Source: Candidatus Giovannonibacteria bacterium RIFCSPLOWO2_02_FULL_45_28
GTDB taxonomy: Bacteria; Patescibacteriota; Minisyncoccia; UBA11713; 2-01-FULL-45-33
Direction of reading: 5' to 3'
DNA length: 64,000 nt
Assembly: GCA_001780725.1 (NCBI GenBank)
Contig: MFIM01000001.1
Coordinates: 83,642-147,641 of the forward strand
Shown: positions 19,426 to 29,073 of the stretch, in pieces
Layout: each line of letters opens with the position of its first letter
How positions within the stretch are numbered: the first letter of the stretch is position 1
Notes under the pieces: generated by a model
The model's input: the letters and a program-made list of their open reading frames with translations, nothing else
What the model was told of the DNA's origin: nothing
Database searches by the model: none
Made by a program: the position numbers and the translations under genes

Positions 19426-19851
19426 TCAAACCTTAATTGGGATAATTTCAAAAGTATTATGGTCGCGTTCAAACTTTATTCGGTAATTATCAAAAAAACC
19501 GATTTGCCCCAATAAAGCATGAACTGCCAGGTTGGGCACAAAACCAACTTCAACTTTTACTTTGTCCGTGAATTCTTTGATTTTGATATCAACGTCAATA
19601 AAATGTGTTTCCATCGCTTTGCCATCTATGCCCGTTACGCTCTCTTTCTTTTTGGCTTTGTCCAGATTTATACCAACGTATTTTGCAAATTCAGCGTTTA
19701 TTAAAATATTATCTGCCCCAGAATCCACCAGCGCTCCAAAAATAGAAACATTCTTTAAAGGTCCAAACAACTCAATCTCTATAATTGGTCGTCTCCTGTG
19801 AGGAGCTGTTGGTTTTGATGGATCAAATACAGCAGAGTACTGATATTTCAT
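19426..19851 (-). CDS. Retropepsin-like (clan AA) aspartic protease
   Basis: 141 aa. ALVDSGADNILI catalytic motif. Confidence 0.6.
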   Translation of the reverse strand: MKYQYSAVFDPSKPTAPHRRRPIIEIELFGPLKNVSIFGALVDSGADNILINAEFAKYVGINLDKAKKKESVTGIDGKAMETHFIDVDIKIKEFTDKVKVEVGFVPNLAVHALLGQIGFFDNYRIKFERDHNTFEIIPIKV

Positions 19852-20075
19852 AAACTCGAAGGCGCCAAATTTGCTCCGAGCGGTAATACCTTCGAAAACG
19901 CCACTCTGCTTTGAAGCACACTGTCTATTTTAGAAGCCGTTTCCTCAAGAGTTTCTCCACTAGCTATAATCTTTGTTCGGTCAGGAGAAAGCGCCACCCA
20001 TTTATTTTCGTATGGCTTAAGAATTGAGCTTAAATCGGGCATTTTTACAATGTTTTCTTCTTGTGTTTTTGACAT
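19848..20075 (-). CDS. Small DUF5678-like protein partnered with the retropepsin-like gene
   Basis: 75 aa. KWVALSPDRTKIIASGETLEE pattern. Overlaps the downstream protease gene start. Confidence 0.45.
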   Translation of the reverse strand: MSKTQEENIVKMPDLSSILKPYENKWVALSPDRTKIIASGETLEETASKIDSVLQSRVAFSKVLPLGANLAPSSL

Positions 20076-21028: not shown

Positions 21029-22222
21029 TTATTTATTGATCTTGGTGACCACACCAGCGCCGACGGTTTTGCCTCCCTCTCTGATTGCAAACCTTTGTTT
21101 TTCTTCCAAAGCCACAGGCGCGATAAGTTTTACGGAAAATTTGATAGTATCTCCCGGCATCACCATCTCCGTGCCTTGCGGCAAAGTTACGTCTCCCGTC
21201 ACATCAGTGGTGCGGATATAAAACTGTGGCTTATATCCGCTGAAAAACGGGGTGTGCCTGCCGCCCTCTTCTTTAGTCAAAATATAGACTTCCGCGTCAA
21301 ATTCAGTGTGTGGAGTGATAGATCCGGGCTTTGAGATAACTTGTCCGCGCTCCACATCTTCCTTTTTGACGCCGCGAAGCAAAATTCCCGCGTTGTCTCC
21401 GGCCAAGCCTTCATCCAATTGCTTGTTAAACATCTCTATGCCGGTTACCACTGTTTTTTGGGTATCGTGAAGACCCACTATCTCCACTTCATCGTTTAAT
21501 TTAACTTTGCCTCTTTCAATCCTTCCGGTAACCACAGTGCCGCGGCCTTCAATGGAAAACACGTCTTCAACAGGCATAAGGAATGGCCTGTCAATATCGC
21601 GAACCGGTTCCGGAATATATTCGTCCAACTGCTTTGCAAGTTCCAAAATCGGTTTTGCCCACTCATCTTCCGCTGATTTGACTTCCAAGGCTTTCAAAGC
21701 CGAGCCGCGGATAATCGGAGTTTTGTCTCCCGGGTATTCATATTTAGTCAAAAGCTCACGGACTTCGGTTTCAACCAAGTCAACCAATTCTTTGTCGTCC
21801 ACCGCGTCAACTTTGTTTAAGAAAACAATAATTGCCGGCACGCCGACTTGGCGCGCAAGAAGTATGTGCTCTCTTGTCTGCGGCATCGGGCCGTCAGCAG
21901 CCGAAACAACCAAAACTGCGCCGTCCATCTGCGCCGCGCCAGTAATCATATTTTTGATGTAGTCCGCATGCCCCGGAGCGTCAATGTGCGCGTAATGGCG
22001 CTTGTCGGTTTCATACTCCGAATGGTGAAGAGCTATGGTAATTCCGCGCTGGCGCTCTTCGGGAGCGTTATCAATATCTTCAACCTTTTCCACTCTCGCC
22101 TTTTTGCCGGCTAAATTAAGCACGTGCAAAATTGACGCTGTTAGCGTGGTTTTGCCGTGGTCAACATGGCCGATTGTGCCCACGTTAAGATGGGGCTTTG
22201 TCCTCTCAAATTTCTCCGCCAT
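21029..22222 (-). CDS. tuf: Elongation factor Tu
   Basis: 397 aa. [18 protein letters not shown] GTPase motifs. Confidence 0.97.
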
Positions 22223-22313
22223 AAATTTATTTAAAAATTAGCGCTTATAAAAGCCAATACGCATTTTCAGCGTATAATCCGTATATTATAGGATGATAAA
22301 ACCCCTGTCAAGG

Positions 22314-22342
22314 CGCAAAAAAACCCCGACACAAGGTCGGGG
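22314..22342 (-). terminator. Rho-independent terminator (CCCCGAC-ACAAG-GTCGGGG plus U-run on minus strand)
   Basis: 7-bp GC stem preceded on the plus strand by AAAAAAA. Downstream of the small minus-strand ORFs and upstream of tuf. Confidence 0.55.
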
Positions 22343-22370
22343 CGAGGCGGCTAAACTAGCCGCAGGTTTC

Positions 22371-22547
22371 TTACAACATTATTAATTTAACGATAAGGAA
22401 CAAAATGTAAGCTATTGATAATAGGGATAAAAACCAGGAAAATTTGGCAATCCAAACCAGATGTCTCTCCAGCCAAAATCTTTGTGGAACAACCGCCCGA
22501 TAAACCGTCATCAAAATAGCTCCGAAAATTCCAGCAAGGAACATCAT
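22371..22547 (-). CDS. Small membrane protein (58 aa)
   Basis: Not in the ORF track. Two predicted TM helices. ATG overlaps the stop of the 68-aa ORF upstream. Followed by a terminator. Confidence 0.35.
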   Translation of the reverse strand: MMFLAGIFGAILMTVYRAVVPQRFWLERHLVWIAKFSWFLSLLSIAYILFLIVKLIML

Positions 22548-22750
22548 CCTTGTTCACCCCCTTGATGCGTTGTTAGAAAAGTTTTTTCTTCGGCAGAAAG
22601 CTTTTTGAAAATTGCCGACAGTTTTTGCCAAATCTCTTTGGCTTCCGGATCGTTTTGACGCCTCTGCTTTTCAAAAACTTTTAGAATAAACTGAAGCCGT
22701 AAAAATTCTTCTAATTTCTTGCTCTGCCCGTACTCAACGCCTTTGGGCAT
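22544..22750 (-). CDS. Hypothetical protein (68 aa)
   Basis: Charged helical ORF. No recognised motif. Confidence 0.3.
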   Translation of the reverse strand: MPKGVEYGQSKKLEEFLRLQFILKVFEKQRRQNDPEAKEIWQKLSAIFKKLSAEEKTFLTTHQGGEQG

Positions 22751-22758
22751 AAATCACC

Positions 22759-23019
22759 TCACTGCCATCGAGACATCACTCCAGCATTTCCAGTCACGCT
22801 CACTACCACCTGTCCATAATGATCGTCAATGCGCACCACTCCGCCACCGCGAGAGATAAGAATGGCGGCATTAACATCTTTTGGAACGATTATCTTCGTG
22901 CCATCGGTAAATTCCATACCGACAACGTTTCCGTCGCTAAGCTCAAGCGATTTTATAGTCCTCACTATTCTACCTCCTATTCTAAACCAAAGCTTATCAC
23001 TAAACCGGCAGGTCGTCAA
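22759..23019 (-). CDS. Hypothetical protein (86 aa)
   Basis: ORF with no recognised motif. Confidence 0.3.
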   Translation of the reverse strand: MTTCRFSDKLWFRIGGRIVRTIKSLELSDGNVVGMEFTDGTKIIVPKDVNAAILISRGGGVVRIDDHYGQVVVSVTGNAGVMSRWQ

Positions 23020-23234
23020 GCCCCACTTCTTCGTCTAGATTTTCTGCAAGCAGTTTGTCAGACAAAATTTTTTCTTCTTGTTGTAATTCTATATTTTCGT
23101 TTTCCATAAATTATACCAATTCTAAAATCTTTGAACGAAGCTTGCAAGCATTCCCGTGCTTCAACAAGCCAAGATAAGAATTTAGAGTATCCGCCATATT
23201 ATTTTCTTGTAATCTTCTCATCATCCGCCTTTTT

Positions 23235-23540
23235 GTGCTTGTCCGCAAAACTCATAGACATTCTTTAGGCCAGCGCATTGACGCGTTTTTTATTGAAATT
23301 ATGGAAGCGATTGCGGTTGCGAGTTTTCTTTCGCGAGAAGAAAAACTGCCTTATATCAGATTGGCTATGCGAAAAACGGACGCGCTGAAAATACTGCTTA
23401 TGGTACTTTGGGAAACCAAATCTTTGGACAATAAAAAATATGCCGCGTTGTCGATCAAAATAATCGAAATTGGAAAAATGCTGGGCGGATGGAGCGGACA
23501 GATACAAAAACAAAACTCTCCCAAAACGGGAGAGAAATGA
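23235..23540 (+). CDS. avd: Four-helix-bundle protein of the 23S rRNA IVS / DGR accessory variability determinant (Avd) family
   Basis: 101 aa (start may be further upstream at a non-ATG codon). LVRKTHRHSLGQRIDAF... and C-terminal IIEIGKMLGGWSGQ resemble Bordetella phage bAvd (IAEVGRILGSWIAR). Confidence 0.65.
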   Translation: MLVRKTHRHSLGQRIDAFFIEIMEAIAVASFLSREEKLPYIRLAMRKTDALKILLMVLWETKSLDNKKYAALSIKIIEIGKMLGGWSGQIQKQNSPKTGEK

Positions 23541-23546
23541 AAAGAG

Positions 23547-23673
23547 TTGCCGAAGCGGAGAGCGGGATTGTTAGAATACCAGCTGTAGCCCAACCAGCAC
23601 CAGAGCAACACGACCTCGTCGCCGTACTCGCAGAGATACGGGACATTCAGGTTGCCGTTGCGGTTCTGCACGA
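23547..23673 (-). repeat. DGR template repeat (TR)
   Basis: 127 bp homologous to the 3' end of the target gene (24052-24178). Carries adenines (AAC codons, sense = minus strand) at 11 of the 13 positions where the two copies differ. Confidence 0.75.
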
Positions 23674-24047
23674 AATGTATGGGATTTCATCTGTGCCACT
23701 GCCCTTTGAGTGCTCTTGGAGCTGTATCGTATTCGGCATAGCAATGCCTTAAAACCCCACACCAAGTATATTCATTTTTTATGAAGTGCTGCATACACCG
23801 CTCTATTTGAAACCTTGATCGCAAATATTCCGGATATATGGATACTGGGTTCGGTAGCAAGAAACCTTAATTTCCTGCGTATTCACCTACTGCCATTTTT
23901 GATGGTAGCACAAAAAAGAAAAGCCCCCGATGTTCTGGGGGCTGGAGTTCTGCGCTATTCTCCACAGCGTTTGGCATTATGCCAGTTCGGAAGGACAAAG
24001 GTTCAAGCGTCCAAGCGCAGCAGGACACAGGAGCCAATGTCTAAGTT

Positions 24048-24710
24048 CTACTTGCTGAAGCGGAGAGCGGGATCGTTAGAATACCAGCTGCAGCCCAACC
24101 AGTACCAGAGCAACACGACCCCGCCGCCGTACCCGCAGAGACACGGGACATCCAGGCGGCCGTAGCGGTCCTGCACGACCGACTTCCACCCAAACACCGT
24201 CTTGCCTGCATATAACTTGCGGAACACAGCAATGCCCTTGGTTTGGATGGCCAGGAGGTCGGCCAGTCCGAGGCAATCGGCAAGAGCATTGTCCTTCTGA
24301 AGATGCTTGTAAATCGCGTTGCCGATCGCAACTCCCGTTTTCTGGTCATTGTGGAGCCAAAGCCCGACCGCGGCGTTGAGGTTGTATTCGGCGGGTCCAA
24401 CGAGCTCCAATTCGGGATGCATCACTTTCTTCATCCAGCCGGGATAGCTCGGTTTGACCGAGCGGTCCACGCTGATAATGAAGTCAAGTAACACCTCGGG
24501 AGCGGGGACAACATCTCCAACGGTTACTAGGCGCTCAATCGGCTTGATCTCGCTGAAACCGTTGAGTACGGCCTTGATGGTCCCGAGATCATACTTCCTT
24601 AATTTGGTTACCTCCTCGACACTAAATCCCGCCTTTTCCAGAGCATCGGCCAGTTGGTTCATATGGCCGATAGAATACAGAGTAGACATAATCTTCCTCC
24701 CTTTGGACAT
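24048..24710 (-). CDS. DGR target (variable) protein, 220 aa
   Basis: C-terminal 42 codons form the variable repeat ...QDRYGRLDVPCLCGYGGGVVLLWYWLGCSWYSNDPALRFSK. The TR encodes N at the diversified positions. Confidence 0.65.
   Translation of the reverse strand: MSKGRKIMSTLYSIGHMNQLADALEKAGFSVEEVTKLRKYDLGTIKAVLNGFSEIKPIERLVTVGDVVPAPEVLLDFIISVDRSVKPSYPGWMKKVMHPELELVGPAEYNLNAAVGLWLHNDQKTGVAIGNAIYKHLQKDNALADCLGLADLLAIQTKGIAVFRKLYAGKTVFGWKSVVQDRYGRLDVPCLCGYGGGVVLLWYWLGCSWYSNDPALRFSK
24052..24178 (-). repeat. DGR variable repeat (VR) at the target gene 3' end
   Basis: Pairs with the TR. Substitutions are confined almost entirely to TR adenine positions (AAC to GAC, TAC, CGC). Confidence 0.75.
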
Positions 24711-24921
24711 GTTCCTTTCTAGAACTCGTCCGTTTGCTGTTTTAATTTGACTTTCGCCACAGCCCCGACATGACTTTTTATAAGCCAGTTCGGGGCTACG
24801 GCAAAGCGCAAGTTAACGTATTAAAGAGCTACGCCCCAATTATACACCCGAAAGGTTTAAAAGTCAATAGCTGAAAATCCTTTATTTTATAAGGGTTTTT
24901 TGGGTAATTATAGCTTTCGCG

Positions 24922-27012
24922 TTATTTTTTTCCTTCCTTAATCAACTCCGCGATATTGTTTGACACCTCATCATAATGATCAAATTCCATTGTGTACGAA
25001 GCCCGGCCTTCCGTCATGCTTCGGAGCTTGGTGACATATCCGAACATTTCGGAAAGCGGAACTTTGGCGTCCACCACCCGCGCGTTGCCGCGCTCCGACA
25101 TCTGTTCAATTTTTCCGCGCTTGGAAGAAAGATCTCCAGTAACATCTCCCAAAAACTGGTCCGGAGTTACAACTTCAACTTTCATAACAGGCTCAAGCAA
25201 AACTGCGCCAGCGCGTTTTGAGGCTTCCTGTAAAGCAATAGAGCCCGCAATCTTAAACGCCGCTTCGGAAGAATCTACGTCGTGATAAGAGCCGTCATAA
25301 AGCGCCACGCGCATGTCCACCAAAGGAAAGCCCGCCACTACGCCTTTTTCCACCGCTTCTTTAATGCCTTTTTCTACTGCCGGAATAAATTCTTGCGGGA
25401 TAATCCCGCCCTTTATTTCGTTAAGAAATTCAAATCCCTTGCCGCGATCGTTCGGCTCAACTCTTAACCATACGTGCCCATATTGCCCCCTGCCTCCTGA
25501 TTGGCGAATATATTTTCCTTCAGCCTCCGCTGTTTTTTTAACGGTTTCTTTGTAGGCAACCTGCGGGCGGCCGACGTTGGCCTCAACTTTAAATTCCCGC
25601 TTCATGCGGTCAACCAAAATTTCCAAATGGAGTTCGCCCATTCCGGAAATAATTGTCTCCATTGTTTCTTCGTCGCCCTTGATGCGAAAAGTGGGGTCTT
25701 CTTCCGAAAGCCTGCGCAGCGCCAACCCCATTTTTTCCTGATCCGCTTTTGTTTTGGGTTCAATCCGCAAAGAAACCACCGGTTCGGGAAATACAATTGA
25801 TTCCAAAACGATGGGATGTTCCGGGTCGGAAAGCGTGTCCCCCGTCTTTGTATTTTTTAAACCAACAATCGCGCCTATCTCCCCCGCCTGCATTTCCTTT
25901 ACTTCTTCGCGGTGGTTGGCATGCATCCGCAAAATTCTGCCGATGCGCTCTTTGTCGCCCGTGCGCGTATTTAAAACGTAAGATCCGGCGGAAAGTATGC
26001 CGGAATACACTCTAAAATAAGTAAGCTGTCCGACATACGGATCGGTCTGCAGCTTGAAAGCTAGGGCCGCAAACGGCACGTCGTCTTTGGACTCGCGAGT
26101 AAGTTCTGCTTCTGTTTTTGGATCGTATCCCTTGATCGGCAGAAGGTCGGCCGGACTCGGCAGATAATCCACAACCCCGTCAAGCATCATTTGCACGCCT
26201 TTGTTTTTCAAGGCCGATCCGCAAAAAACTGGAACCAGTTTATAATCAAGCGTTGCGCGCCTAAGCGCAGATCTTAATTCTGCCTCGCTGATTTCTTTGC
26301 CCTCAAGATATTTCTCGGTAAGCGCGTCGTCTTCTCCGGCAATGCGCTCTACCATTTTGTGCCGCCATTCTTCGGCTTCTGTTTTTTTCTGCGCCGGAAT
26401 TTCTTCTTCAACTATTTTTTCCCCATGCTCTCCTTCAAATTTGATAAATTTCATTCTCATAAGATCAATTACACCGGAAAAATCTCCTTCTAAACCAACA
26501 GGGATGTTCACTGCCACGGCGTTCGGAGTCAGGCGTTCCAAAATAGAGTTAAAACTATTAACAAAAGACGCACCCATGCGGTCAAGTTTGTTTATAAAGC
26601 AAATCCGCGGGACTTTATATTTATCCGCTTGCCGCCAGACTGTCTCGGATTGCGGCTCAACGCCCGCAACTCCGTCAAAAACAACAACGCCGCCATCCAA
26701 AACGCGCAAAGACCTTTCCACTTCAACCGTAAAATCCACGTGTCCGGGAGTATCAATAATATTTATGCGATATTTTTCTCCACCGTATGACTTGGTCCAA
26801 AAACAAGTTGTGGCTGCGGAAGTAATTGTAATGCCGCGCTCTCTTTCCTGCTCCATCCAGTCCATCACAGCCTCGCCTTCGTGCACCTCGCCGATTTTAT
26901 GCGAAACTCCGGTATAAAAAAGCACCCGTTCGCTAACGGTCGTTTTCCCCGCGTCAATATGGGCAATTATGCCGATATCCCGCGTCCGCTCAATTGGATA
27001 TTCCCGTGCCAT
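24922..27012 (-). CDS. fusA: Elongation factor G
   Basis: 696 aa. [18 protein letters not shown] motifs. EF-G domains IV-V present. Confidence 0.97.
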
Positions 27013-27043
27013 AAAAATTAAAAGATAGTTTATAGATTACTAT

Positions 27044-27103: not shown

Positions 27104-27640
27104 TTAAAAAGGCCTGCCTGTTCTTAACTTGCCTTTAGTAAAAGAGTCTACTATAATCTTCCCGTTTTTTTCATGGCCATGGATTATCGCTGGTTTTATT
27201 ACTTCGAGGACAACACCCCCCCGCTCACTTGCCTTAAAAAACCTGTTTAATGCGGTATCAAAATTGTCCCGTAGTAAAGGCCTGATTTCCCAACCGCCCT
27301 CAACCTTTTCGAGATAATATATCCCCCCCCTAATTTCTGGGCGGTAATCATGTTCCAATATTTTCAGTTCCATGGCATAACTATCGGCATACTCACCTTC
27401 TTTTCTCACAATGAACGCAGTATCGTCGTTTGGATATTCAAAGCCCTTTTCAAGCTCACTTACATTCTCTTCTAAACCTTTGGCGGGCTCGCCAATACTC
27501 TCTTCGCTGCGCCCGTCTCTAAATCGTTGGATTGCTTCTTGGTATTTAGCAACAATGCGTTCAGCTTCTTCCAACTCGGTCTCGGATTTTATTTCCAAGT
27601 CTTCTTTGCTGGGAAACCCGCTTTCGAATTTATTTACCAC
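27104..27640 (-). CDS. Hypothetical acidic protein (178 aa)
   Basis: ORF with its own terminator. No recognised motif. Inserted between rpsG and fusA. Confidence 0.4.
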   Translation of the reverse strand: MVNKFESGFPSKEDLEIKSETELEEAERIVAKYQEAIQRFRDGRSEESIGEPAKGLEENVSELEKGFEYPNDDTAFIVRKEGEYADSYAMELKILEHDYRPEIRGGIYYLEKVEGGWEIRPLLRDNFDTALNRFFKASERGGVVLEVIKPAIIHGHEKNGKIIVDSFTKGKLRTGRPF

Positions 27641-27676
27641 AATATAATGCTAGCACAAAAGTTTTAAAAATGCAAT

Positions 27677-27961
27677 CTACTTAGATTTTTTATAAATCTC
27701 GTGCGTGCCGATGTTTAAATAAACTACAACATTATCATTCACAAAATAAAAATGAATGCGGTAGTCTTTATTTACCGAATATGCCCAGTCGTTCTTAAGC
27801 TTTCCGCCAAGTTTATGAGTTTCTAAAGAAGGATGAAATGCGTTTTGCCGAAAAATCTTATCTTTGTTTGCCGCTAATTTTTGGACGACTTTAGGCAACC
27901 GCTCAAAATTCTTTTCAAAAAGAGAGGTGTGTTCTACCCCGAAGATCCTCCGTGGTGTCAT
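27677..27961 (-). CDS. RelE/ParE-family type II toxin
   Basis: 94 aa. C-terminal WAYSVNKDYRIHFYFVNDNVVVYLNIGTHEIYKK matches the RelE/ParE fold consensus. Confidence 0.6.
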   Translation of the reverse strand: MTPRRIFGVEHTSLFEKNFERLPKVVQKLAANKDKIFRQNAFHPSLETHKLGGKLKNDWAYSVNKDYRIHFYFVNDNVVVYLNIGTHEIYKKSK

Positions 27962-28167
27962 TTAATAAGCCGGCTCAGGTTTTTTAAAATTTTTGTCTTG
28001 CCTAATCTGTGTTCTCGCCTCCCCAATCTGCTAGCTTTGAGAGCGTCGTCCATTTCCCAACTTCTCTGTAAATCTTTTGCGAATTCTTTCGGATCCACGA
28101 CCAAAAGCTTGCGGCCGTTAGCGCGTTTTAAAATTTCTTTTGGAATTTCTATGGTAATAGTTGCCAT
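27958..28167 (-). CDS. Putative antitoxin (69 aa) of the RelE-like toxin
   Basis: Small ORF directly upstream of, and overlapping (ATGA), the toxin gene. Confidence 0.45.
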   Translation of the reverse strand: MATITIEIPKEILKRANGRKLLVVDPKEFAKDLQRSWEMDDALKASRLGRREHRLGKTKILKNLSRLIK

Positions 28168-28189
28168 AAAATTATTTTAACACAAAATA

Positions 28190-28663
28190 TTACCAAGCAA
28201 AGTGCGCAAAGGCTCTGTTGGCTTCGGCCATGCGATGAGTGTCCAGTTTTTTCTTAATTGCGGCGCCTTCGTTTTTTGTCGCGAGCAAAATCTCTTCAGC
28301 TAATTTTTTAGCCATTGGTTTGCCTTTTTTGGCGCGCGCTGCGCTGATAAGCCATCTGGCCGCCAACGAAAACCCGCGGTCTGGCTGAACCTCTCGTGGC
28401 ACCTGATAGGTTGCGCCGCCAATTCTCCTTGGGCGGATTTCCACGATTGGCGTAATATTTTTCATCGCTTGTTCCAAAACAGCTACAGGAGTTTCGTCTT
28501 TTTTCACCGCTTTTTTTATTTCCTCAAGCGCCCCCCACATAACCCTCTGCGCCGTAGATTTTTTTCCTGAAAACATTAAATGGTTGGTGAGTTTCGCAAC
28601 CAACCGCGAATCATAGAGTGGGTCCAACATTAAATCTCTGTTTTCTTTCTTTTTTCGCCTCAT
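28190..28663 (-). CDS. rpsG: 30S ribosomal protein S7
   Basis: 157 aa. S7 family. Ends ...RAFAHFAW. Confidence 0.95.
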
Positions 28664-29073
28664 TGTTTTGGCCGCTTAGTTCCGTATTTTGACCTTTGCT
28701 GTTTCCTTTTTTCAACTCCGGTTGCGTCCAAGACCCCGCGCACAATGTGATATTGCACCCCAGGCAGGTCTTTTACGCGGCCTCCGCGGATTACAACAAC
28801 AGAGTGCTCCTGCAAAGTATGCCCTTCGCCGCCGATATAAGCTGTGACCTCCATGCCGTTAGTAAGACGGACTCTCGCAACCTTTCGCAAAGCGGAATTA
28901 GGTTTTTTGGGGGTCATTGTTTTGACAGCTAGGCACACTCCGCGCTTAAAGGGCGACGGATAAAACCGCGGGCGGTTTTGGAGCGCATTAAAAGACTTGG
29001 CAAGCGCCACCGACTTCGCCTTATATTCCATCTTCTTTCTGCCCCTTTTTACAAGCTGATTAATAGTAGGCAT
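28660..29073 (-). CDS. rpsL: 30S ribosomal protein S12
   Basis: 137 aa. [12 protein letters not shown] start and [10 protein letters not shown] motif. Confidence 0.97.

What the first reader, a model, noticed from the sequence alone, without database searches (positions are those of the whole stretch)
23235..24710. Diversity-generating retroelement signature (Avd + TR + adenine-mutagenised VR) wedged between tuf and fusA, with no reverse transcriptase in view
Two 127-bp segments, 23547-23673 and 24052-24178, are homologous at a constant offset of 505 bp.
- I count 13 mismatches. At 11 of them the 23.5-kb copy has an adenine on the coding (minus) strand and the 24.1-kb copy has G, T or C.
- At codon level the first copy's AAC/AAT codons (Asn) align with GAC, TAC and CGC in the second copy: NGNLNVPY... 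versus YGRLDVPC...
- The diversified copy forms the last 42 codons of an intact 220-aa ORF. The adenine-bearing copy sits in no convincing gene.
- This is the hallmark of DGR mutagenic retrohoming: A-specific TR-to-VR substitutions, with the VR at the C-terminus of the target.
- Immediately beside the TR is a 101-aa four-helix-bundle protein of the 23S-rRNA-IVS family, to which the DGR accessory protein Avd belongs.
- No reverse-transcriptase-like ORF is anywhere in the window.
- Avd is on the opposite strand to the TR sense strand.
- The whole cassette is inserted between tuf and fusA, which are normally adjacent.
Basis: partly seen in the sequence, partly recalled or inferred. Interest (0 to 1): 0.88.

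Follow-up and report, generated by a model that had tools for sequence, protein, structure and literature searches.

The report
Decayed DGR: reverse transcriptase deleted
This is a real diversity-generating retroelement of the type common in ultra-small groundwater bacteria, but a deletion of about 0.95 kb removed almost all of its reverse transcriptase and the start of its helper gene, so the hypervariable tip of the target protein now appears frozen.

Summary
Segments 23547-23673 (TR) and 24052-24178 (VR) are 127-nt direct repeats with 13 mismatches. Eleven of them sit at TR adenines on the minus strand (P=4e-8).

The VR forms the last 42 codons of an intact gene. That gene belongs to a ~200-aa Patescibacteria family whose C-terminal 40 residues are hypervariable.

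The missing RT is explained. Intact relatives have the order target-VR, structured leader RNA, TR, avd on the opposite strand, then RT. This is the published "B3" layout, reported for 90% of CPR DGRs.

In the window only the last ~46 RT codons survive (23251-23111, minus strand). They abut avd at 23246/23247, and avd has lost its N-terminal helix. One contig, 99.9% identical from 23247 through fusA, still carries the avd N-terminus and the RT start codon. The loss is therefore a ~0.95-kb deletion.

The VR is identical in every assembly recovered. A sister lineage's orphan target shows 7 differences in 6 kb, all inside its VR.

The TR has lost 9 of 29 canonical adenines, mostly to bases shared with the VR.

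Verdict: a degenerate member of a known kind. Servicing in trans by an RT elsewhere in the genome is not excluded.

The parts
24048..24710 (-). DGR target gene (220-aa ORF; probable true start ATG 24689, 213 aa). Variable N-terminal helices, a highly conserved core (residues ~70-180) and a hypervariable C-terminus.
   Evidence: ORF. 225 homologues, all Patescibacteria-type, no Pfam domain. Alignments A2/A3 show hypervariability confined to the last ~40 residues. AF2 model has pLDDT >90 for residues 70-220.
24052..24178 (-). Variable repeat (VR), the last 42 codons of the target.
   Evidence: 13 mismatches to the TR, 11 at TR adenines.
23994..24041 (-). Imperfect hairpin beginning a few nt after the stop codon. 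Its position and shape recur in relatives. Candidate target-recognition hairpin (inferred).
   Evidence: DNA folds of the window, L017, L021 and L016. The flank motif GTAGAACTNNGRC is conserved.
23922..23943 (-). Intrinsic terminator of the target gene.
   Evidence: AGCCCCCAGAACATCGGGGGCT followed by a T-run.
23677..23894 (-). Conserved structured RNA domain ('leader') directly upstream of the TR: 8 helices, 56 pairs. Presumed 5' part of the DGR RNA.
   Evidence: Alignment A4 of 13 loci. RNAalifold finds 33 pairs with compensatory changes. 96.6% of cells pair versus 34-45% in slid controls, and 0/500 shuffles reach the observed values. The window keeps 54/56 pairs. No Rfam hit.
23547..23673 (-). 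Template repeat (TR), partly degenerate. It has 23 A versus 32-38 in relatives. 9 of 29 canonical A positions are lost, and 8 of those 9 carry the same base as the VR.
23516..23534 (-). Stem-loop (7 bp, CTCTCCC/GGGAGAG) plus T-run, 13 nt downstream of the TR and antisense to the avd 3' end. Candidate Avd-binding or terminator element of the DGR RNA (inferred).
   Evidence: Handa et al. (bioRxiv 10.1101/2023.10.23.563531, section 10) report Avd-binding stem-loops just downstream of the TR in 207 of 278 DGRs.
23247..23540 (+). 5'-truncated avd. The called ORF is 23235-23540, but its first 4 codons derive from the antisense of the RT tail. The N-terminal helix 'PPP..LLPLLQK.K.AY.LWYGYY..LPK' is missing.
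   Evidence: Pfam bAvd E=7e-9 at 36.6 bits, below the cut-off of 40, profile positions 22-104/107. Alignments to full-length relatives. Homologues are typically 108-140 aa.
23246..23247 (.). Deletion junction. About 0.95 kb is missing here: RT codons 1 to ~285-300, the RT-avd overlap, and the avd N-terminus.
   Evidence: L053 is 99.9% identical to the window from 23247 to 24950 and diverges upstream into the avd N-terminus plus the RT start MKIQ. The deleted span measured on L054 is 948 nt.
23111..23251 (-). Reverse transcriptase C-terminal remnant (VLRTSTKRRMMRRLQENNMADTLNSYLGLLKHGNACKLRSKILELV*). The whole RVT_1 domain is absent.
   Evidence: tblastn with six relatives' RTs gives E about 2e-7 to 8e-7 (five of the six hit), aligned to their residues ~297-345. 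The RVT_1 domain spans residues 93-296 in the L017 RT. Partial RTs P0251-P0254 read ...ASGVDFLGWVHF..HRVLRTSTKRRM....
24839..24867 (-). Promoter-like site (TTGACT-17-TATAAT, 11/12 matches) in front of the target gene.
22371..23107 (-). Four small ORFs (35, 86, 68 and 58 aa) between the RT remnant and tuf. No informative homology. Whether they belong to the cassette is unknown.
   Evidence: They are called in all sibling contigs.

Best explanation
The locus is a degenerate diversity-generating retroelement of the Patescibacteria 'B3' type.

In intact relatives the order on one strand is as follows:
- target gene ending in the VR;
- terminator;
- a ~220-nt structured leader RNA;
- the TR;
- avd, encoded on the opposite strand so that its 3' end is antisense to the RNA just downstream of the TR;
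- the RT gene, whose 5' end meets the 5' end of avd.

How the intact element is inferred to work, from the Bordetella phage paradigm:
- The leader-TR-downstream RNA is bound by RT-Avd.
- It is reverse-transcribed with misincorporation opposite adenines.
- The cDNA replaces the VR, so the C-terminal ~40 residues of the target are rewritten at AAC/AAT-type codons.

What happened in the window:
- A ~0.95-kb deletion with its junction at 23246/23247 removed RT codons 1 to ~290 (all of the RVT_1 fingers/palm, including YADD). It also removed the N-terminal helix of Avd.
- It left a 46-codon RT tail fused back-to-back with a truncated avd.
- With no catalytic RT, and probably no functional Avd, no cDNA can be made from this locus.
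- The VR is therefore frozen at the last variant written from the local TR.
- The target gene remains intact, with its own promoter and terminator, and presumably functions with a fixed specificity.

Shown: the repeat and its A-bias, the deletion, the RT remnant, the truncated avd, the intact RNA elements, and the invariant VR in the available assemblies.

Inferred: the mechanism of retrohoming, loss of Avd function, and inactivity.
For: 1. A-specific TR/VR mismatches, 11/13, P=3.9e-8. The same pattern appears in 12 relatives.
2. The architecture target-TR-(avd)-RT is seen in L016, L017, L021, L037, L043 and L032, and in other Giovannonibacteria loci L054 and L055. It matches architecture B3 of Wu et al..
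3. The relatives' RTs are RVT_1 at E~1e-24. In the window only their last ~46 residues align, at 23251-23111(-). No YxDD motif occurs in any ORF of 150 aa or more that could be an RT.
4. The window's avd lacks the conserved N-terminal helix and falls below the Pfam cut-off.
5. L053 has the same locus, VR, TR and fusA at 99.9% identity. It retains the avd N-terminal codons and the RT start MKIQ, identical to the first four residues of the L055 RT.
6. The deleted form is 100% identical across the junction in six independent contigs from NCBI, JGI and ENA.
7. The exact target protein is on 43 or more contigs, and all cluster members share the VR. In the sister cluster, L007 and L011 differ at 7 positions in 6,000 nt, all within the VR.
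8. 2 of the 13 mismatches are non-A. L035, a relative with a broken RT and Avd, has 5/18 non-A mismatches, while RT-bearing relatives have 0-1.
Against: - The RNA module is fully preserved: the leader keeps 54/56 pairs, and the TR and the downstream stem-loop are intact. Long-term decay has therefore left no trace. This fits either a recent deletion or continued selection.
- The assemblies with an identical VR are almost clonal outside recombined tracts. VR invariance is thus shown only over a short time scale and only at consensus level. No read-level data were available.
- The rest of the genome could not be searched for a second RT.
- The RT of the undeleted allele (L053) was not recovered. 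The contig ends 12 nt into it, and the RT-tail protein search found only partial, non-identical RTs.
Confidence: 0.8

Rival explanations
1. The cassette is RT-less but not dead. Its intact RNA module (leader, TR, downstream stem-loop) is used in trans by an RT-Avd pair encoded by another DGR elsewhere in the same genome, so the VR can still be diversified, perhaps rarely.
For: - Remote servicing evidently occurs in the sister lineage. The orthologous target sits alone between glmS and an NTP-transferase gene, with no TR, Avd or RT within 8-10 kb. Yet two strains differ at 7 of 127 VR positions and at 0 of 5,873 flanking positions.
- RT-less TR-VR cassettes recur in this family. L019 and L031 have perfectly A-specific mismatches (15/15, 17/17) and intact leader structure (56/56, 55/56 pairs).
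- Other Giovannonibacteria carry complete DGRs.
- Non-adjacent targets are known for other DGRs (PMC5758913).
Against: - The VR is identical in all recovered contigs and cluster members, including the allele that keeps the avd N-terminus (L053).
- The VR agrees with the local, degenerate TR at 8 of the 9 positions where that TR has lost canonical adenines. The last rewriting therefore used the local TR, and nothing shows later activity.
- 2 of the 13 mismatches are non-A.
- No second RT, TR or target exists in the 64-kb window.
Confidence: 0.14
2. The missing RT is an assembly or binning artefact. The true genome has an intact RT, and contigs collapsed or mis-joined at a repeat.
For: One contig (L053) shows the undeleted avd N-terminus and breaks exactly at the RT start. 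Such a break is typical of strain heterogeneity in assembly graphs.
Against: - Six contigs from different assemblers and projects (NCBI MAG, two JGI metagenomes, three ENA assemblies) are 100% identical across the junction and on both sides of it.
- The junction joins in-frame-recognisable parts of two genes.
- L053 carries two linked SNPs 29 and 35 nt from the junction, which marks it as a distinct haplotype.
Confidence: 0.03
3. This is not a DGR at all. The 23.5-kb copy is a decaying duplicate of the gene's 3' end, and the A excess reflects ordinary AT-biased mutation of non-coding DNA.
For: 9 of the 11 A mismatches are A/G transitions. The surrounding DNA is more AT-rich (40-47% GC) than the target gene (55-58%).
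Against: - Strand-symmetric decay would produce T-in-copy mismatches as often as A-in-copy mismatches. The observed counts are 11 versus 0.
- The adenines lie in AAC/AAT codons that are conserved in the TRs of 12 divergent relatives.
- The copy is flanked by a covarying structured RNA, a bAvd gene and an RT remnant.
Confidence: 0.01

Closest known systems
Patescibacteria (CPR) DGRs of architecture B3, TR-(avd)-RT (Wu et al. 2018, PMC5758913); DGR clade 2 of Roux et al. 2021 (PMC8144416)
   Same: - Same host group.
- Same order and orientation of target, TR and reverse-strand avd, with the RT remnant on the TR strand.
- C-terminal VR built on AAC codons.
- Target protein without recognisable domains or transmembrane segments.
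   Different: - The RT is reduced to its last 46 codons and avd lacks its N-terminus.
- The TR has lost about a third of its canonical adenines.
- The VR shows no variation among assemblies.
Bordetella phage BPP-1 DGR (mtd-VR, avd, TR, brt), the mechanistic paradigm
   Same: - Adenine-specific TR-to-VR differences.
- VR at the 3' end of the target.
- Four-helix-bundle Avd.
- The TR is embedded in structured upstream and downstream RNA, which the bRT-Avd complex requires (bioRxiv 10.1101/2023.10.23.563531).
- A hairpin lies downstream of the VR.
   Different: - Here avd is on the opposite strand, so the RNA downstream of the TR is antisense to avd.
- The RNA upstream of the TR is a dedicated ~220-nt non-coding domain rather than avd coding sequence.
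- The element is chromosomal, sitting inside the str operon rather than in a phage.
- The target is not detectably Mtd-like.
DGRs with non-adjacent (remote) targets, e.g. Treponema denticola and Legionella (as summarised in PMC5758913)
   Same: The sister-lineage orthologue of this target is diversified with no DGR within 8-10 kb. The family therefore does use remote targets.
   Different: In the window the VR has its own adjacent TR. The VR matches that local TR, not a canonical remote one.
DGR loci scored 'inactive' in metagenome surveys (Roux et al. 2021, PMC8144416)
   Same: The VR shows no excess variation.
   Different: In that survey inactivity was inferred from SNV statistics of RT-bearing loci. 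Here the cause is structural and visible (RT deletion). RT-anchored detection pipelines would not have listed this locus.

Membership tests
Diversity-generating retroelement (DGR) | TR/VR near-repeat whose differences are concentrated at adenines of one copy | tested here: met
   11 of 13 mismatches at TR adenines, P=3.9e-8, none at TR thymines.
Diversity-generating retroelement (DGR) | VR lies within (usually at the 3' end of) an intact protein-coding target gene | tested here: met
   The VR is the last 42 codons of ORF 24048-24710(-). 225 homologues are hypervariable only in this segment.
Diversity-generating retroelement (DGR) | A DGR-clade reverse transcriptase (RVT_1 domain with a YxDD catalytic motif) encoded with the TR | tested here: not met
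   Only the C-terminal ~46 codons remain (23251-23111, minus strand). The RVT_1 region is deleted. No RT exists elsewhere in the 64 kb. The rest of the genome was not searchable.
Diversity-generating retroelement (DGR) | Accessory protein Avd (four-helix bundle, Pfam bAvd PF22296) | tested here: inconclusive
   Clear homology (E=7e-9; 66-67% identity to relatives). However, the score of 36.6 bits is below the curated 40, the N-terminal helix is missing, and the first 4 codons are chimeric. Full-length relatives pass at 43.6 and 44.3 bits.
Diversity-generating retroelement (DGR) | Structured RNA flanking the TR, needed for cDNA synthesis | tested here: met
   A 56-pair covarying domain lies upstream of the TR and a stem-loop lies 13 nt downstream. 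That these elements function in cDNA synthesis is inferred from the Bordetella system.
Diversity-generating retroelement (DGR) | Ongoing diversification of the VR in populations | tested here: not met
   The VR is identical in all sibling contigs and cluster members. This contrasts with 7 VR-only differences in the sister lineage. The test is at consensus level only; reads were not available.
Diversity-generating retroelement (DGR) | IMH-type 3' boundary and hairpin/cruciform downstream of the VR | tested here: inconclusive
   A conserved post-stop motif and an imperfect hairpin occur in the window and relatives. The z-scores are weak except for L021.
Architecture B3, TR-(avd)-RT, of CPR DGRs (Wu et al. 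2018) | TR followed by avd on the reverse strand, followed by RT on the TR strand | tested here: met
   TR 23673-23547(-), avd 23247-23540(+), RT remnant 23251-23111(-). The order is the same as in L016, L017, L021, L037 and L043. The definition is from the PMC5758913 Fig. 5 legend.
C-type-lectin-fold DGR variable proteins | VR displayed on a CLec fold (Mtd/TvpA/FGE-like) | tested here: inconclusive

The most novel reading that the evidence does not exclude
RT-less 'satellite' cassettes (target + VR + structured leader + TR + downstream RNA, without their own RT) are maintained in Patescibacteria and rewritten in trans by a DGR elsewhere in the genome. Under this reading the window's locus is one node of a distributed hypermutation network, and the deletion polymorphism (deleted versus L053 allele) acts as a population-level on/off switch.

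The evidence does not exclude it:
- the RNA module is intact;
- two further RT-less cassettes (L019, L031) have perfectly A-specific mismatches;
- a sister lineage diversifies an orphan VR.
Probability: 0.12. Interest if true: 0.6.

Novelty: new member of a known kind. Interest (0 to 1): 0.33.

Why it matters
- **Detection.** The case shows how a DGR dies: one small deletion removes the RT catalytic core and the avd 5' end, while the target, VR, TR and RNA elements stay untouched. Pipelines that anchor DGR detection on the RT would miss such loci. In this target family at least 3 of about 11 evaluable TR-bearing loci lack an RT.
- **Annotation.** The analysis assigns a roughly 200-aa Patescibacteria protein family with no Pfam domain as a DGR target family.
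- **RNA element.** It documents a strongly covarying ~220-nt RNA domain upstream of the TR that is not in Rfam. That domain could be used to find TRs, and therefore DGR cassettes, independently of protein genes.
- **Open question.** Because both a deleted and an apparently undeleted allele exist in related samples, the locus would suit a read-level test. The question is whether losing the RT locks in a successful receptor variant.

Tried and rejected
- **Metagenome scan.** A degenerate TR/VR DNA pattern was run against metagenome contigs to find the sister lineage's TR or an intact allele. It returned only the window's own TR and one sister VR.
- **RT-tail protein search.** A search with the 46-aa RT tail, meant to recover the undeleted allele's RT, found four partial RTs at 56-67% identity and none from this locus.
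- **Genome scan.** The protein-based scan of genome contigs did not return the window's own species. The rest of its genome could not be inspected for a second RT.
- **Fold searches.** Foldseek against PDB and BFVD gave nothing significant. The afdb50 library was unavailable. A profile search against PDB sequences gave nothing.
- **Rfam.** A scan of 22200-24950 returned only two sub-threshold chance hits.
- **Papers.** Paul et al. 2017 (tried as PMC5436926) and the 2026 'Minerva' preprint could not be opened. What I say about Paul et al. 2017 rests on citations in Wu et al. and Roux et al.
- **Alternatives rejected.** These were AT-biased pseudogene decay (no T-type mismatches, conserved AAC codons in relatives), an assembly artefact (six concordant contigs), and the idea that the 106-aa ORF over the TR (23351-23671) is a gene (no Pfam hit; it is antisense to avd).
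- **Left unresolved.** The TR's lost adenines could reflect VR-to-TR gene conversion or mis-targeted retrohoming into the TR. The data do not separate the two.
Full report

Yes.
- Segments 23547-23673 and 24052-24178 are a 127-nt direct repeat at offset 505 with 90% identity. No other copy exists in the window.
- On the minus strand there are 13 mismatches. Eleven have A in the 23.5-kb copy (9 A>G, 1 A>T, 1 A>C) and two are G>A.
- That copy has 23 A in 127 nt, which gives a hypergeometric P of 3.9e-8. No mismatch has T in that copy, so symmetric AT-biased decay is excluded.
- The in-frame translations are VQNRNGNLNVPYLCEYGDEVVLLWCWLGYSWYSNNPALRFG (TR) and VQDRYGRLDVPCLCGYGGGVVLLWYWLGCSWYSNDPALRFS (VR).
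- The VR forms the last 42 codons of ORF 24048-24710(-). Annotated homologues start at ATG 24689 (213 aa).
- fusA and tuf flank the cassette.

**2. The target family**

- The gene has 225 homologues, essentially all from Patescibacteria. None has a Pfam domain.
- The window itself comes from a Candidatus Giovannonibacteria population from aquifer metagenomes.
- Alignments show a variable N-terminus, a very conserved core and a C-terminal ~40 residues that are hypervariable. Only the scaffold L.VP.L.....VV..W.WL...W.S..PALRF.K is conserved.
- An AlphaFold model is confident for residues 70-220, with pLDDT above 90.
- Foldseek against PDB and BFVD, and a profile search of PDB sequences, find nothing.
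- A divergent CLec-like fold is therefore plausible but not shown. This agrees with Roux et al., who note that CPR DGR targets usually lack recognisable domains and may hide new CLec variants (PMC8144416).

**3. What intact relatives look like**

A scan of species-representative genomes returned 39 loci with this target family.
- Twelve have a second copy of the VR 445-540 nt downstream. They show 14-24 mismatches, nearly all at adenines of the downstream copy: 18/18, 17/17, 19/19, 22/22, 23/24 and so on.
- Their TRs contain 32-38 A.
- Right after the TR, on the opposite strand, lies a bAvd gene.
- Beyond that, on the TR strand, lies a 346-394-codon ORF with YADD that matches RVT_1 at E~1e-24.
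- Two other Giovannonibacteria genomes show the same RT / avd / target arrangement.
- This is architecture B3, TR-(avd)-RT. Wu et al. report it for 90% of CPR DGRs (PMC5758913).
- Avd on the 'wrong' strand is therefore normal for this group.

**4. Where the RT went**

- tblastn with six relatives' RTs finds one significant hit in the whole window. Their last ~45-60 residues (for example L017 residues 303-345 of 362) align to 23251-23111 on the minus strand. The sequence is VLRTSTKRRMMRRLQENNMADTLNSYLGLLKHGNACKLRSKILELV*.
- The RVT_1 domain spans residues 93-296 of the L017 RT. It is entirely missing from the window.
- Partial RTs from the database read ...ASGVDFLGWVHF..HRVLRTSTKRRM.... The remnant therefore begins exactly after the HR.
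- On the other strand, homology to Avd starts at K-T-H-R-H-S-L-G-Q-R-I (23247 onward).
- The conserved N-terminal helix (PPP..LLPLLQK.K.AY.LWYGYY..LPK) is replaced by unrelated codons, which are in fact the antisense of the RT tail.
- The truncated Avd scores 36.6 bits, below the Pfam cut-off of 40, over profile positions 22-104. Full-length relatives pass.

The decisive comparison is contig L053 (ENA ERZ27254851).
- It is 99.9% identical to the window from 23247 through the TR, VR, target gene and fusA.
- Upstream of 23247 it carries PPLQILPLLQKTKYAYMLWYGYYQILPK (the avd N-terminus). On the opposite strand at the contig end it carries ATGAAAATTCAA = MKIQ. Those are the first four residues of the L055 Giovannonibacteria RT.
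- Measured on the complete element L054, the missing span is 948 nt.
- The deleted form is not an artefact. Six contigs from three sources are 100% identical across it.
- The junction lies in an A-run (AAAAC), which may represent microhomology. That is inference only.

**5. Is the element still working?**

- The exact target protein occurs on 43 or more contigs.
- Among the members of its 90% cluster, none shows a VR change at a TR-adenine position. The only C-terminal departures are one V-to-G substitution at a non-adenine position, one internal deletion and one frameshifted copy.
- The L053 allele has the same VR.
- In the sister cluster (65% identical protein) members differ only in the VR.
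- Two of the sister contigs differ at 7 positions in 6,000 nt, all 7 inside the 127-nt VR. That gene has no TR, Avd or RT within 8-10 kb. It is thus a remotely serviced target.
- Caveat: the window-type contigs are nearly clonal outside recombined tracts. VR invariance is shown only over a short time and only at consensus level.

**6. State of the TR**

- Of 29 columns where at least 9 of 12 relatives' TRs have A, the window's TR keeps 20 and has lost 9.
- The lost positions cluster at TR positions 48-96.
- At 8 of the 9 lost positions the TR and VR carry the same non-A base.
- The replacements are A-to-T/C/G, which is the signature of adenine mutagenesis rather than ordinary drift.
- A tract of the TR has therefore apparently been overwritten with VR-type sequence. 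The cause could be VR-to-TR gene conversion or mis-targeted homing. I cannot distinguish the two.
- It also means the present VR was last written from this local TR, not from a canonical TR elsewhere.
- Two non-A mismatches (TGC/TAC at 23598; G/A at 23551 near the 3' boundary) are compatible with drift after the last homing event.
- L035, a relative with a fragmented RT and Avd, has 5/18 non-A mismatches.

**7. RNA elements**

- The 218 nt directly upstream of the TR (23894-23677, minus strand) are conserved across 13 loci from divergent Patescibacteria. They fold into 8 helices with 56 pairs.
- 33-34 pairs show compensatory changes.
- 96.6% of cells pair, versus 34-45% when partners are slid.
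- 0 of 500 shuffles reach the observed values.
- Rfam 15 has no match.
- A 7-bp stem-loop with a T-run lies 13 nt after the TR.
- Handa et al. showed that the Bordetella TR must be flanked by structured upstream and downstream RNA that wraps bRT-Avd. They predicted Avd-binding stem-loops just downstream of the TR in 207 of 278 DGRs, CPR included.
- The window keeps 54/56 leader pairs, as many as RT-bearing relatives.

**8. Rivals**

The main rival is trans-servicing by another DGR of the same genome.
- In its favour: the sister lineage's orphan VR, and the intact RNA module.
- Also in its favour: two further RT-less cassettes, L019 and L031. They have 15/15 and 17/17 A-specific mismatches and intact leaders.
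- Against it: the invariant VR, the non-A mismatches, and no second RT, TR or target in 64 kb.
- I could not search the remainder of the genome. I give this rival about 0.14.
- An assembly artefact (0.03) and a non-DGR duplication (0.01) are effectively excluded.

**9. Verdict**

- The apparent paradox of a DGR without an RT is resolved by a ~0.95-kb deletion. It left an RT tail and a truncated avd.
- The opposite-strand avd is the normal CPR layout.
- This is a degenerate member of a well-known kind, of modest interest.
- The by-products may be more useful than the finding itself. They are a DGR target family with no Pfam domain, a strongly supported structured RNA upstream of the TR that is absent from Rfam, recurrent RT loss in this family, and clear evidence of remote-target diversification in a sister lineage.

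Noticed in passing
window 23677-23894 (-), and the equivalent positions in L016, L017, L019, L021, L028, L031, L032, L033, L035, L037, L041, L043: A ~220-nt structured RNA domain lies immediately upstream of the TR. It has 56 pairs in 8 helices, 33-34 of them with compensatory changes, and it far exceeds the shuffled and slid controls. There is no Rfam 15 match. It could serve as a protein-independent marker of CPR DGR cassettes.
   Followed up: yes
L007 8001-8651, L011 8001-8684, L012 7424-8086 (sister Giovannonibacteria): An orthologous target gene stands alone between glmS and an NTP-transferase gene, with no TR, Avd or RT within 8-10 kb. L007 and L011 differ at 7 positions in 6,000 nt, all inside the 127-nt VR and all at canonical TR-adenine sites. 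This is a remotely serviced DGR target.
   Followed up: partly
L019 10800-10921; L031 10774-10896 and 10942-11211; L033; L035: RT loss or breakage recurs in this DGR family. L019 has a TR and VR but no RT, and only a trace of avd. L031 has a truncated avd and no RT, and sits beside nusG-rplK. L033 and L035 have fragmented RTs. Most of the other 39 family loci have no RT within 10 kb.
   Followed up: partly
window 23547-23673: The TR has lost 9 of 29 canonical adenines, clustered at TR positions 48-96. Eight of the nine now carry the same base as the VR. This suggests VR-to-TR gene conversion or self-homing into the TR.
   Followed up: partly
window 27104-28167 (-): Three extra genes sit between rpsG and fusA inside the str operon: a 69-aa ORF, a 94-aa HigB-like toxin (weak Pfam hit) and a 178-aa ORF. 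The related contig L004 lacks them. The str operon of this organism therefore carries at least two separate insertions.
   Followed up: no
window 26000-27015 and 28000-29073, compared with L004 and L003: Sibling contigs are identical to the window over about 12 kb but drop to about 75% identity (L004, upstream of fusA). In L003, about 166 mismatches are packed into rpsG-rpsL. These are sharp recombination tract boundaries in an otherwise clonal background.
   Followed up: partly
window 19426-19851 (-) and 19848-20075 (-): A 141-aa retropepsin-like aspartic protease ORF (Pfam gag-asp_proteas / Asp_protease_2 in the sibling-contig annotation) and a 75-aa ORF follow rplC. This is an unusual insertion in the S10 ribosomal-protein operon.
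   Followed up: no
window 24050-24650: The target gene is 54-58% GC, against 40-47% in its immediate surroundings. This is consistent with acquisition of the cassette as a unit, or with family-specific composition.
   Followed up: no
window 22371-23107 (-): Four small ORFs (35, 86, 68 and 58 aa; the last is hydrophobic) lie between the RT remnant and tuf. None has informative homology. A terminator (22323-22343) and a TTGACA-17-TAATAT promoter (22283-22311) then precede tuf.
   Followed up: no
L053 1-112: In the undeleted allele, a run of 7 C lies in the avd 5' region. The codons LNFHKNFSTTPP upstream of it are in a different frame from the rest of avd, compared with L054. This may be a frameshift or a downstream TTG start.
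   Followed up: no
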